Assembly (NCBI RefSeq): GCF_003704095.1
Contig: NW_020844410.1
Span: 186,001-250,000 of the forward strand
From: Pocillopora damicornis
Lineage: Eukaryota
Direction: 5' to 3'
Length of the DNA: 64,000 bases
Under the pieces are notes generated by a model. That model saw nothing but the letters and a program-made list of their open reading frames with translations, searched no databases and was not told where the DNA came from. This document shows, in pieces, positions 1,973 to 56,226 of the stretch (position 1 is its first letter; every line of letters starts with the position of its first letter). The position numbers were made by a program, and so were the translations under genes.

Positions 1973-4213
1973 ATGTGGTATTACACAGAATCAAAAGCCA
2001 CTATGATCGGCCTGGCTACAATGTTCTCTATTCTCACTGCCATGGACATCATTGGAAACGTGATTGTTTGTGTGCTGATCGTTAAATTCAAAGATATGAG
2101 GTGAGTCAGACGCCACTTGCAATGGTGAAGGATTTCATGTGGGACACTTGAAGGCTGAAATGAAGGTGACTTGAAATTTCATGCATAACCAGATGTGACA
2201 AGCGGAAGAAAAGGAAAAAAATTAATCCTTTAAGCCTTTTTTACCTAATCATTGTTTTCTTTTTCATTTGTTTCGATTTTATGGCTTTTTTTATCATTAT
2301 AAACCAATAACCGAGGCATGGAGGAGGGGAGGGGGGTACTTAGTCACCCACTAATCGACTGTACAGGATCTTTGCAAATATAAACCTGAGGTTAAAAAGG
2401 GTTTATGTCACATCTTTACGCTAAGAAATCAAAATAGAATTTAGACAATAAAAAGTTTATCAACTTTGATTCAATTTTTGTCAGGATTCCAATGAATTAT
2501 CTAATCCTGAACCTGGCTGTAGCAGACATTTTGGTCGCCCTTTTCGTAGTTCCTCGGTTTGTGCTCTTTAATGCTTACATACTCCCTGATGGAATGACTG
2601 GTACAGTTATCTGTAAGCTGCTGACCGGTGGTAATTTGTCTTGGATTGGAGCAGTTGCTTCTGCATTTACACTGGCTGTTGTAGCTTTAGAGAGATACTA
2701 CGCAATCATGAACCCACAAGGCACACAATTGACAGCTGCGAAGGTAGAGGTAAGGAAAAAGCTAAATCAAAAAGCAAAGAGGCCGAAAAGGAAAATAAAA
2801 CATACAATAATTGAGTAAAAGCAGAGACAATTCATACACTCAACACGAAAAGATATCAGTATCACTGGGGTGTCCAAATTACATTAACCTTTGCAGATCC
2901 GTATTTTCAATCGTTTCCAAACGCGTATGTATAATTTGGTGATATAGCAGATATGAATAAGGTGGCAGAATTATTAATCACACAAATCGGCGAAACTGCA
3001 GCTTCCAATTTTTGTTTGTCAATCAGAGATTTTGAGAGCCAGCCGCCATCTCCCCTTGGGCAAATTTTTATATTCGTGTTAGTTTAATTTCTCACTCCAT
3101 CGCTCATTACATTCTTGCAGATCATTGTTCCAGTAATTTGGCTATTAGCAATCCTCTTCAATTTGCCTCTGCTGTTGACCGACCGGTACAGCACAAAGCA
3201 CAAGACTTGTATGGAGAACTGGCCAGAGGAATGGATGGCAAAGTCCAGCAGCTTGATATGGCTTGTGGTGACCGGCTATCTTCCCATATTCCTGATGATC
3301 GGACTGTACGCAAGAGTCGTGTATCAGCTCTGGTTTCTTGATGAGGATGATGGCGACAGCACTCGACAGGCAAGCACGGGGTTCTTTGAATGTTTTTGTT
3401 TTCGTAGACTAACTCAGAATTAAGCGAGAGACTATACAATGTTTTTTTTGTTCACTGATTAACTAACTAGCCCCATTGAAAAAGCAAAATTTTTGGAGGC
3501 AATCACAGCATTACCAAACTTTTTCTGTGTTGTTATTGCTGGAACGAAACTAGGCCACTTCCTCAAGAATCAGCGTCATTCCAGTATGTTATGTCCTTCT
3601 TCTAAAGAAAAAAGGCAGGAGTTCTATCTTTTATAAATACTCCGTTCATTACAAACACGGTTTAATTTAAAAATCTAACTCCCTCTTTCTTTTAAAGCTC
3701 GACGGTGTTTGGACAAACATAACCTAGGAATTGGCAAGCTTGCATAGGGATATAGATCAAGAACAGCAAATGCTTTGAGAGAGGCTTTCAATGTTAGCAA
3801 TTTCTTTCACAACCATTTCGCCAATTTCATAATTTTAGGGAGTGCTGAGGATTCGAAGAAGAATCACCAAAATGGTTTTCACAGTTAGCATGGTCTTTGC
3901 CGCTTGCCGGATTCCCGCCCAAACGATGTACGTCATCAGCTACTTCAGTCGCACCCAGTACCACAGCGATTTACTGCATATCATATCCGTTGCTGAGGTG
4001 ACTGCCAATTCCGCCATTAACCCATTCATATATGCCTTCGTTAATCATCGCTTTAGACAGCACATCAAGGAACTGATATGCTGCCCTGGTTTGTGCAAAA
4101 CAAAGGTGGATGCCTTTATCCCAGGTCAGGATAGCACCCAAGACGCCACTTACACTACGGAGGTAGTGCAGTTGCAACAAACATCGCAAGAAGAAGCTCC
4201 AAGATATGATTAA
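1973..4213 (+). CDS. GPCR-1: class A GPCR, neuropeptide-receptor-like, about 338 aa, intact
   Basis: Exons 1973-2100, 2485-2749, 3121-3369, 3839-4213 join in frame. Motifs GN (TM1), NLAVAD (TM2), CKLLTGGN/ERY (TM3), NSAINPFIY (TM7), helix 8 FRQ. The intron 3 donor appears to be GC (CAG|GCAAGC). Confidence 0.9.
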
Positions 4214-4899
4214 TCTAGATAATGAGCTTGTTATCATTGCCACCATAATTGCCATCTTGTAATGAGTTTCGCGAGAATGTCGTAATGTCGAAGTTTTAGA
4301 AAAGTTTGTATTTTTAGGAAATTATCAGAGAGGTCAATCATGACATGCACAGGAACTGGCCAAATTTAACAGAACTTGTCATTATTTGTTCACAACTTGT
4401 GATTCTTTGTTTAAGTGTTTTATCTAAATTTGGAACATTTATACTTTCTTCTCGTTTGACTTACGAATCGTAGAAAAAGTTCATGATTGTTGACCTCATC
4501 TGATAGCTTACGTAAGAGTTGCATTTTAGTATTTTCACAACGTTAGGTCCATGGCGCATTACCATCCCATAGAAATCCCTTTTTATGGTTTCTTTTTCTC
4601 GTCGTGGATTCCGGGTGGTATTCAGTTTATGCTAATCAAAAATTTTGGAACATGTTGTTGCAGAGTACATGTTCATGCACGACATAGTATGGTATCGTCA
4701 TAAAGGTACAAAACTGTGTCAGCCGTCCAACTGTTATCTTCTTGTGTTTATTTTTACCGAAGATCATGGTTAAGGTTCGCTTTGTTGCTTCTAATTTTCT
4801 CTTGCGTTTTATTTTATGTTCCTTTTTAAGTTACTTAAAAATATGTCTTTGTTTATTGTTAAAAGTGGGACAGGCTCGATCAATTTTCCTTCAATTAAT

Positions 4900-5365
4900 T
4901 AAGTAAGAAACCTTTATTTCCATAGGGTGGCTCCTTCAGTTTTTGCACGAGATAAAAACTGCTATCCATAGAGGTCCAACATATATTATAAACTAAATTG
5001 ACTGGAAATAATATTGATACTCAAGTACATTCAAAAATAGCTATAAAATGTTATCCAAAGGACCTAAAAATCAAATTACAATTAAAATCTTAAAAATCTT
5101 AAAATCTGATTAAAAATTACACAGCCATGATAAAAGGGCCTTTTTTGTACATTTTAACTTTATAGACAGAAGTCTAGGTTTACCGCTGCTTCTTGTTGCT
5201 CCAGGTAATACATCTTTGTTATAATTAAAGTAGTGCATAAAGAACTGTTGACAACGGTTGCTTAAGCATTTCATGACTAAATTGCGTACATGGCTCTCAC
5301 GCTTTTTCTCCAGAGTTTCGTAACCTAAGAAATTTAGCGCTTTTTCGCTGCTCCCCAGACACATA
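4900..5365 (-). mobile_element. L2/CR1-type LINE 3' fragment
   Basis: ORF 5110-5364 (LGYETLEKKRESH...KCL...YFNYN...TRSS..L..IKL) resembles the C-terminus of L2/CR1 ORF2. It is followed by a stem-loop 3' UTR ending AATAAAGGTTTCTTACTT. Confidence 0.7.
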
Positions 5366-54391: not shown

Positions 54392-54522
54392 GAGTTCTAA
54401 CAAATGACCACAAAGAGGATTATTTTTAACTTAACTCTACTTTAGCCTTACAAGCAAAACTGGCTCTGTATAAGCTGAATTTGTTCAGCCATTCCAGACA
54501 TAATTTGAAATTATTAACTCAC

Positions 54523-56226
54523 CCGTTGTTGATAGTTGAGTGGGTTGCCATCATTGGGTTTGCACCATAACGTGTATACCACTTTAGAGTATAACACAAT
54601 CATTATGCCAACGGAAACTACAACCAGAAACAACCACGCCAAGCTGTAGGCTTTAATCATCCACTTTTTGGGCCAGGTTTGCACACAATGATTTTTCTGG
54701 TTATCAAATGTCCTGACGAGAAATTTTGGTATGTTGAAAATTATTGAGAACACCCAAGAAGTAATGACGATCACCTGAAAAGTAAATTCATGGAACAGTT
54801 TCATTTTCTTCCAAAATATTTTAATCCGAGGTGTAATTTTTTTAGGGTTATCCCGAGTGACTATGCATATTTTTAGAATTAAAAAAAATTCGAATTCTAA
54901 TACGTTTAGAATCATTTATTGTTTCTTATTAGAGTATATTTTTCAAGTTAAGGAATAACATATGTCTTTAAGAATATCAAAAACGTTTAATTCAGTTAAA
55001 TGTACTGACGGCATAAGGCGTATTGCATGAGAAGTGACAATCAGTCTTGCTGTACCATGTAAATGAAATTGACGATGATTATGCTAGCTCTGCTATCAAT
55101 GTTTTAAACGAATATTTTCTTTCTCAGTCCTACTAAGTCCAAAAGAATTTCACCTTTGAGTCTGTGCGTAGATGAATTTATTTTCAAATATTACCCATTC
55201 CAAGTTAACTTTCCCTGATATTTCTTGAGGGACTTAGAAGTGATTGGTAGTTTAAAGTTCTGATATCGGATTACTTTCCCAGTGTGTTTTTAAACAGCCA
55301 GAGATCTATGATCATGAAAATTAATCTTCGACGCGAACAGAAAATGCTGATACATTATTTCTTTTCAATAATAGCTTGTCAGAGACCTTAGAAAGTACTT
55401 TCACCTGGTTTGTCAACGGGAATGTTTTTTAACTCACCTTAAGCTTACGGTGGGTCAGCTTTCTATCTGGATCCAGTGGATAAAGCACAGTATAATATCG
55501 TTCAACAGCAATAGCTACCAAAGTAACAACTGAGGTAATTCCAGGAAGCCAGGCCAGATTTCCACCTGTCACCAACTTACAGAGGACTGAGCCTGCAGTT
55601 CCATCCGGGTGTACTATATTGAAGCTTACAACAATCTTTGGTGTGATAAATGTTGCATACAGGATATCGGAAATAGCCAGGTTCACGAGTAGATAATTTA
55701 TGGGAATCCTTTGGAGTGAAAGAGCGAACTCAGAAAGGTCAATAAGGAACATAATAATCGAGTTTTCTTTTATTCGTAAAGTGAAATACCGTTACCGAAA
55801 TTCCAAAGGCATTAAAGCATTGACTTGTAATCAAACGAGTTTCACTCGCTGCAGAAATTTCTAAGAATCAACATTTTCTAAAACATCAGAAACACTTATT
55901 CTAGATTAAAGATAACTGACGTTAAAAGAATTTCTACTAGATATCAGTCAAGTAGAAGACACAAATGACAACCCGTAAATGTATTATGCGGTAAATCTTA
56001 AAAACTTTCCTTGATCCTCATGATTATGCCGAAAATTATATCTATTATGAAATACAGAGAAGTAGAAGGAAGGAACATACGAAGAGTGGAGTGTAACTAG
56101 TGATTACCTCATCTGAAGGTGTCGTTTTATAATCAAACAAAGCAATGTATTTCCTGCAATGTCCACAGCGACAAGCGTTAACAGTATGGTGGTGATCACG
56201 TAATTAGCTGTATCAGACACGACCAT
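54523..56226 (-). CDS. GPCR-13: exons 1-3 open; adjacent exon 4 not visible
   Basis: Exons 56226-56108 (MVVSDTANYVITTILLTLVAVDIAGNTLLCLIIKRHLQMR), 55708-55438, 54774-54523. Confidence 0.87.

What the first reader, a model, noticed from the sequence alone, without database searches (positions are those of the whole stretch)
1973..56226. Birth-and-death array of about 13-15 N-terminus-less orphan GPCR loci: candidate anthozoan chemosensory or peptide-receptor repertoire
Seen: paralogues with identical intron positions in both orientations, with intact, pseudogenised and relic copies side by side. TM1 begins within about 4-12 residues of the Met (MPESIALT..., MTDSAGVF...) and I see no N-terminal NxS/T sequon. 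Known: tight clustering, high turnover and short N-termini typify chemoreceptor repertoires, whereas conserved neuropeptide receptors are usually low copy. Inference: a lineage-specific receptor expansion sensing a diversified ligand set (environmental cues or endogenous short peptides).
Basis: partly seen in the sequence, partly recalled or inferred. Interest (0 to 1): 0.72.

Follow-up and report, generated by a model that had tools for sequence, protein, structure and literature searches.

The report
Coral orphan GPCR tandem cluster
This is a real cluster of about ten related receptor genes in a coral, part of an unnamed family shared with sea anemones whose signal is unknown (likely small positively charged molecules such as short peptides), and such receptor clusters are common in coral genomes.

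Summary
The array is real but over-counted. The window holds nine intact four-exon class A GPCR genes (two partly in assembly gaps), one pseudogene and four relic exons. Three more pieces lie between 100-N scaffold gaps; two match genes found on a different sequence in two other Pocillopora assemblies, so they are probably misplaced. The array continues about 65 kb beyond the window. The short, sequon-free N-terminus is confirmed but is family-wide, found also in sea anemones, so it says nothing about this expansion. The family has an invariant TM3 Thr-Gly signature and a predicted helix break there. Its closest solved relatives are peptide receptors, not odorant receptors. Four Nematostella members were screened against 64 neuropeptides in a published study and are not among the hits. 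The tree shows a conserved founder-like gene beside Pocilloporidae-specific duplicates, all under purifying selection (dN/dS 0.09-0.54). Birth-and-death is supported; a chemosensory role is unsupported but not excluded. Tandem rhodopsin-GPCR amplification is already reported in corals. Verdict: ordinary cluster of an uncharacterised orphan family, interest 0.3.

The parts
1973..4213 (+). G1, intact GPCR gene (coding exons 1973-2100, 2485-2749, 3121-3369, 3839-4213; GC donor at intron 3; Arg at 6.48); 5' UTR exon ends at 1582
   Evidence: Arg6.48 shared with Oculina P0098 and with P0110
5461..8252 (-). G2, exons 2-4 (8252-7982, 7522-7268, 5808-5461); exon 1 not assembled (gap at 8544)
   Evidence: spliced joins in 3 of 4 runs; full-length in P0030 and P0407; no G2-type exon 1 in C1045:166-330 kb
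9857..10407 (-). relic of exons 3-4 with stops and frameshift
11918..14213 (+). G4, intact gene (11918-12045, 12750-13020, 13345-13599, 13842-14213); 5' UTR exon ends at 11540; orientation of its block uncertain
14544..17177 (-). G5, recent paralogue of G4; part of exon 2 and end of exon 4 in gaps
   Evidence: full-length P0398
17970..18041 (+). relic of exon 3 end, duplicated together with G5
18730..19747 (+). small gap-bounded block with half of an exon 3 and the start of an exon 4; likely misplaced piece of a paralogue from another locus
   Evidence: 48 of 48 residues identical to P0378 and P0381, which lie on other sequences than the array in two Pocillopora assemblies
23161..24662 (+). 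G7, intact gene (23161-23273, 23457-23727, 23976-24230, 24360-24662)
26482..28398 (+). G8, intact gene here (26482-26603, 26770-27040, 27294-27545, 28099-28398); possibly disrupted in other colonies
   Evidence: junction 24683 to 26785 in an RNA contig
32496..34760 (+). G9, intact gene (32496-32614, 32774-33044, 33487-33744, 34446-34760)
   Evidence: allele P0018 folded
35483..35610 (+). relic of exon 3
38461..40904 (+). G10, pseudogene: frameshift and two further stops in exon 3
   Evidence: also disrupted in the P. meandrina model P0002
43174..45079 (-). G11, intact gene (45079-44973, 44653-44383, 44188-43949, 43533-43174)
47843..47960 (-). relic of exon 4
49588..56226 (-). G13, intact gene: exons 56226-56108, 55708-55438, 54774-54523 and last exon 49908-49588, separated by two inserted blocks
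   Evidence: P0375 matches these four exons best
50167..52345 (-). G12, exons 2-4 of a paralogue on a gap-bounded block; likely misplaced
   Evidence: 97-99% identical to P0379, which lies on a different P. verrucosa sequence than G2/G4/G7/G9/G13 orthologues
52446..53550 (+). gap-bounded block with intron 2 and intron 3 pieces of the G12/G13 subfamily; likely misplaced

Best explanation
The window is part of a tandem cluster of four-exon class A GPCR genes of an unnamed orphan family shared by stony corals and sea anemones, which turns over by duplication and loss and likely detects small, positively charged ligands such as short basic peptides or amines in adult tissue. Shown: gene anatomy, spliced transcripts for four genes, family membership, turnover, purifying selection, near-absent N-terminus. 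Predicted: a normal 7TM fold with an ECL2 hairpin and a break in TM3 at the Thr-Gly-Gly signature. Inferred: with no N-terminal arm the ligand would bind wholly in the helical pocket, among conserved aromatics (W3.33, Y5.39, W5.43, W6.48, Y6.55) and an acidic 6.51; intact switches (D2.50, S3.39, ERY, NPxxY) would couple it to a G protein; paralogue groups swap charges at 2.60, 6.51, 6.54 and 7.39 and so would differ in ligand preference. The ligand is probably not one of the 64 Nematostella neuropeptides already tested.
For: Anatomy and splicing. Family: HPxGxxG in 107 of 115 and CxxxTGxxxxW in 112 of 115 aligned proteins (rows were chosen on CxxxTG, so that part is by construction); C3.25-R3.50 spacing 27 instead of 25 in 107 of 115. 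Model: pLDDT 90.6, helix 77-87, break at 88-89, helix 90-115. Nearest solved relatives: best 60 profile hits are all peptide receptors, led by NPFF, orexin, QRFP; the listed fold matches likewise. Pocket: D or E at 6.51 in 9 of 10 window-type genes, no Asp at 3.32 in any. Selection: dN/dS 0.09-0.54 in the 55 of 65 pairs that were not saturated (G5 exon 2 was out of frame there, G4/G5 redone as 0.45 and G12/G13 as 0.38). Age: Oculina has at least 21 locus tags of the family on one sequence, including the G1 orthologue. Transcripts come from poly(A) or oligo-dT libraries of three studies.
Against: Nematostella GPR91, 92, 93 and 190 belong to the family (GPR92 by motif only), were in the peptide-mix screen and are not among the 31 deorphanised receptors. 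The family's signature and six member ids are absent from that paper's neuropeptide-receptor tree files. The acidic 6.51 is not family-wide (N33, D28, E10 %). The ECL2 glutamate typical of RFamide receptors (recalled) is present in only 4 of 10 window-type genes. No expression by cell type or life stage was found, so 'adult tissue' and 'cationic' are inferences. Ballesteros-Weinstein positions were read from anchors in the alignment, not from coordinates.
Confidence: 0.55

Rival explanations
1. The family is a chemosensory repertoire for external cues (prey, settlement, microbes), derived from peptide-receptor stock.
For: Clustering, pseudogenes and relics; at least 57 of 67 models fetched from this genome fall in the family clade (weak support at its base); lineage-specific clades; four Nematostella members did not answer to endogenous neuropeptides. 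Galaxea catch tentacles express more 'QRFP-like' and 'substance-K' receptors (PMC7430897; not shown to be this family).
Against: Chordate OR motifs in 0 of 115; 7tm_4 scores at most 33 bits against 126-165 for 7tm_1 in 10 proteins; pocket positions are no more variable than other upper-TM positions (2.21 against 2.13 bits, crude); no pair with dN/dS above 0.54; four array accessions are absent from the held part of the planula aboral/oral and marker tables (file cut, G1, G2, G5, G8, G9 not searched); the two older database models over the array are not among six OR candidates in PMC9897584.
Confidence: 0.2
2. The receptors sense symbiont, microbial or damage signals in immunity or symbiosis.
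For: PMC10236652 suggests this for coral-amplified GPCRs in general. The expansion is in stony corals.
Against: No data here. The family is also multi-copy in Nematostella, which has no algal symbiont (recalled; members).
Confidence: 0.12
3. Most young copies are redundant products of the high tandem-duplication rate of corals; only the founder-like genes matter.
For: About a third of coral genes are tandem duplicates; young pairs have the highest dN/dS (0.38-0.45); G10 is dead and G8 may be lost in other colonies.
Against: Older paralogues with dS near or above 1 keep dN/dS near 0.2; G2, G4, G5, G7, G9 and G13 are intact in P. verrucosa; pocket charges differ by group.
Confidence: 0.1
4. The array is mostly an assembly artefact of uncollapsed alleles.
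For: Eight 100-N gaps; three blocks look misplaced.
Against: Most pairs are 41-75% identical in protein; five loci lie on one 30-kb gap-free contig; orthologues exist in other assemblies.
Confidence: 0.03

Closest known systems
Nematostella orphan GPCRs GPR91/92/93/190 and EDO49025 (data set of PMC11087051)
   Same: Same family: short N-terminus, HPxGxxG, CxxxTG signature; EDO49025 falls in the SH-aLRT 99 clade that holds the array.
   Different: The array's 80-row clade has only stony-coral rows; no ligand known for either.
Coral-amplified tandem rhodopsin GPCR orthogroups (PMC10236652)
   Same: Tandem, genus- or family-specific amplification, function open.
   Different: I did not check which orthogroup this is; that paper's passages describe no gene structure, pocket or N-terminus.
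Bilaterian peptide receptors (NPFF, QRFP, orexin, tachykinin, galanin, opioid)
   Same: Best sequence and fold matches; source of the automatic names 'QRFP-like', 'NPFF receptor 2-like'; ECL2 hairpin with C-x-x-x-W.
   Different: Only 20-28% identity; no N-terminal arm; two extra residues and a predicted break in TM3; PMC11087051 finds no one-to-one orthology of cnidarian receptors to these.
Chordate odorant receptors and Nematostella OR-like genes (PMC3017388)
   Same: Clustered, with turnover and pseudogenes.
   Different: Motifs absent (0 of 115); three coding introns where many OR-like genes have one exon; vertebrate ORs keep an N-terminal sequon (recalled).

Membership tests
Class A (rhodopsin) GPCR | 7tm_1 domain and seven helices | tested here: met
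   126-165 bits in 10 of 10 proteins; model with seven TM helices and helix 8
Class A (rhodopsin) GPCR | N1.50, D2.50, E/DRY, W4.50, NPxxY, TM3-ECL2 cysteines | tested here: met
   each 95-100% conserved (Y of ERY 84%) in 115 rows
Hexacorallian TM3-TG orphan family (unnamed; Nematostella GPR91/92/93/190) | HPxGxxG, CxxxTGxxxxW, C-R spacing of 27 | tested here: met
   the spacing of 27 also occurs in 5 of 12 outgroup proteins, so it is not unique
Hexacorallian TM3-TG orphan family (unnamed; Nematostella GPR91/92/93/190) | groups with anemone members apart from outgroups | tested here: met
   outgroup branch SH-aLRT 98; array plus EDO49025 and three Actinia rows SH-aLRT 99 (quick tree, no bootstrap)
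Deorphanised cnidarian neuropeptide-receptor families (PMC11087051 Fig. 4) | placed in the two cnidarian neuropeptide-receptor clusters | tested here: not met
   signature and six member ids absent from the Fig. 4 files searched; I built no joint tree with the deorphanised receptors
Deorphanised cnidarian neuropeptide-receptor families (PMC11087051 Fig. 4) | activated by a known neuropeptide | not testable with these tools
   published screen negative for four Nematostella members; coral members untested
Chordate-type odorant receptors | OR motifs 1, 2 and KAxxTxxxH | tested here: not met
   0 of 115 each; the source notes that many OR-like genes lack them
Chordate-type odorant receptors | 7tm_4 as best family; single coding exon | tested here: not met
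   four coding exons
Chemosensory repertoire (functional class) | hypervariable pocket or positive selection | tested here: inconclusive
   pocket entropy equals that of other upper-TM sites; pairwise dN/dS below 0.55; no site model was run
Chemosensory repertoire (functional class) | expression in sensory cells | tested here: inconclusive
   four accessions absent from the held part of one planula data set; no atlas data reachable
Aminergic/trace-amine receptors | Asp at 3.32 | tested here: not met
   Ala or Ser in 10 of 10 window-type genes

The most novel reading that the evidence does not exclude
This unnamed family, N-terminus-less and with a Gly-broken TM3, is the anthozoan chemosensory repertoire: a peptide-receptor offshoot that reads external cationic cues, expanded in stony corals into clusters of dozens with presence/absence variation between colonies.
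Probability: 0.2. Interest if true: 0.75.

Novelty: new member of a known kind. Interest (0 to 1): 0.3.

Why it matters
The receptors with which corals sense settlement, feeding or microbial cues are not identified in the papers I read. This family is a defined, expressed, multi-copy orphan group whose anemone members failed a neuropeptide screen, so it is a sensible set to deorphanise. The corrected gene models also matter: database models fuse up to four of these genes into one protein (P0392, 1243 aa; P0430, 679 aa), which blurs any expression analysis. As a genome feature the cluster itself is ordinary for corals.

Tried and rejected
Hidden N-terminal coding exon: rejected for 7 of 9 first exons; open for G7 and G11, and G8's acceptor is presumed. 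G1 as a decaying copy (GC donor, Arg6.48): rejected, it is spliced at low depth and Arg6.48 is shared with Oculina. G4/G5 as alleles: rejected. Odorant-receptor or aminergic identity: rejected. Rfam scan of the window: 0 matches. Pfam on 7 non-GPCR open frames: 0 of 7. Earlier findings of the scan: none by place or sequence. Literature: six Nematostella gene ids of the family in no paper; 'QRFP-like peptide receptor' with coral and expression gave 2 records, 1 listed; searches listed no title on this family, which does not show that none exists. The supplement holding the cloned GPCR sequences of PMC11087051 was unreadable, its cluster file was cut, and 16 of 31 files were not searched for member ids. 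RNA contigs cannot rank expression; G7 and G8 were covered mostly unspliced, G10 exons were not covered, which is no proof of silence. No complex prediction was run: no candidate ligand.
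Full report
WHAT IS THERE. The window is G000:C1045:186001-250000. Database proteins identical to its genes are named Pocillopora damicornis. Exon searches and splice-site checks give a four-coding-exon GPCR repeated along the window. Six genes are complete and open as assembled (G1, G4, G7, G8, G9, G11; 313-341 aa). G13 is complete once its last exon at 49908-49588 is assigned to it: P. verrucosa P0375 matches exactly these four exons best. G2 and G5 lose parts to gaps but are whole in relatives, and G2 is spliced in 3 of 4 RNA runs. 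G10 has a frameshift and two more stops in exon 3. Four relic exons lie between the genes. All junctions present share position and phase, and a 5' UTR intron is shown for G1 and G4.

ASSEMBLY EFFECTS. The window has eight 100-N gaps and three to four sized ones (11 N runs in all). Three small blocks between 100-N gaps hold pieces of the G13 subfamily. G12 is 97-99% identical to P0379 and the fragment at 19024 is identical over 48 residues to P0378 and P0381. These proteins lie on a 23.16-Mb sequence in P. verrucosa and a 5.84-Mb one in P. meandrina, while the orthologues of G4, G5, G7, G9 and G13 lie on 23.80-Mb and 4.04-Mb sequences. I infer that the blocks were inserted by the scaffolder. 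No other copy of G12 was found in G000 (40 of 445 candidates scored).

EXTENT. Flanking DNA shows more loci at C1045 268, 279, 283, 300, 306 and 313 kb, plus relic exons, so the array spans about 126 kb. One exon-2 query gave 79 matches in the genome with 150 of 786 candidates scored. Of 67 models built from fetched loci, 57 fall in the family clade of a FastTree tree (weak basal support). Twenty-eight, all with introns, fall in one 80-row clade of stony-coral rows and one unnamed row (SH-aLRT 93). Many other members are intronless.

N-TERMINUS. N1.50 lies at residue 22-29 and no extracellular N-terminal sequon is present. The model of a G9 allele starts TM1 at residue 6. Stops in frame close the leader in 7 of 9 first exons. 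The trait is family-wide: median N1.50 at residue 26, sequon in 4 of 103 rows (12 of 115 rows lacked TM1), anemone members included. Loop sequons occur in G7 and G9.

FAMILY AND AGE. The named rows among the best 120 of 358 hits and best 120 of 167 hits are stony corals and sea anemones only, under automatic names such as QRFP-like. Oculina has at least 21 locus tags on one sequence. In the IQ-TREE quick tree of 111 rows G1 pairs with Oculina P0098. The gene at C1045 306 kb groups with Stylophora, Acropora, Montipora, Porites and Oculina rows. G7 and G4/G5 each pair with a Stylophora row. G8, G9, G10, G12, G13 and three further loci form a Pocillopora-Stylophora clade. This is an old cluster with conserved founders and younger family-level duplicates. 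Taxon sampling is limited to top hits, so missing orthologues are not proven absent. Medusozoan sequences with a similar motif appear in a supplement (motif only).

SELECTION. Nei-Gojobori dN/dS is 0.09-0.54 in 55 of 65 pairs, 10 saturated (values at dS above 1.5 are rough). The two youngest pairs give 0.45 and 0.38. No positive selection shows at this resolution.

STRUCTURE. AlphaFold2 on a 115-row alignment gives pLDDT 90.6, seven helices, an ECL2 hairpin and a break in TM3 at residues 88-89, on the Thr-Gly-Gly signature (T87 100% by row choice, G88 99%, W93 99%). C3.25 to R3.50 is 27 residues in 107 of 115 rows, and in 5 of 12 outgroup proteins too. Sequence and fold neighbours among solved structures are peptide receptors. 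Pocket positions show conserved aromatics, no Asp3.32, D/E at 6.51 in 9 of 10 window-type genes, and group-wise charge swaps. From this I infer a small cationic ligand; it is not shown.

LIGAND EVIDENCE IN PRINT. PMC11087051 (abstract, sections 6-9 and 16, searches in supplements): Nematostella members GPR91, 92, 93 and 190 are columns in the peptide-mix table and are not in the list of 31 receptors. I did not read their values. A negative screen may reflect poor surface expression or coupling. EDO49025, the member nearest the array, carries no GPR number and so was apparently not screened. The same paper shows that peptide receptors can be multi-copy. PMC10236652 (passages) makes tandem GPCR amplification the norm in corals. 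PMC3017388 (passages) supplied the OR motifs, which are absent. PMC12225738 (passages; cut supplement) lists none of four array accessions in the part held. PMC9897584, PMC7430897, PMC12960093 and 10.64898/2026.10.05.756843 (passages) do not identify this family.

VERDICT. Observation largely right, count and some 'relics' inflated by the assembly. Birth-and-death is supported. Chemosensation remains a minority reading (0.2) that rests on no direct evidence. New member of a known kind; interest 0.3.

Noticed in passing
window 24683-26785: One RNA contig (X2 record 9) joins 24683 to 26785 at non-splice ends, and contigs of X1 and X3 also stop at 24683. This may be a 2.1-kb deletion that removes G8 exon 1 in other colonies; no full G8 protein from another Pocillopora was among my hits.
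   Followed up: partly
window 39090-39375, 24740-24990, 46818-47006: Short dispersed repeat, in part as a 94-bp tandem, with summed contig depth of 6,000-20,000 in RNA runs. No Rfam match.
   Followed up: partly
window 8862-9837: Another repeat with high depth in RNA contigs, next to the relic at 9857.
   Followed up: no
window 19848-20090 (-): Short open frame resembling a retrotransposon reverse-transcriptase fragment (resemblance recalled; no Pfam match).
   Followed up: partly
window 6354-6807 (-), in G2 intron 3: 137-aa acidic open frame without Pfam match, partly covered by an RNA contig.
   Followed up: partly
window 13596-14045: An RNA contig of G4 skips the first 200 bases of exon 4; P0015 lacks part of exon 3. 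Possible mis-splicing or short isoforms.
   Followed up: no
G000:C1045:313082-314394, C3984:75502-77575, C1453:488158-489592: Family members with only one or two of the three introns, beside many intronless ones: stepwise intron gain or loss in the family.
   Followed up: no
window 3839-3900 (G1): Arg replaces the toggle Trp6.48 in G1, its Oculina orthologue and Nematostella GPR91 (4% of 115 rows).
   Followed up: partly
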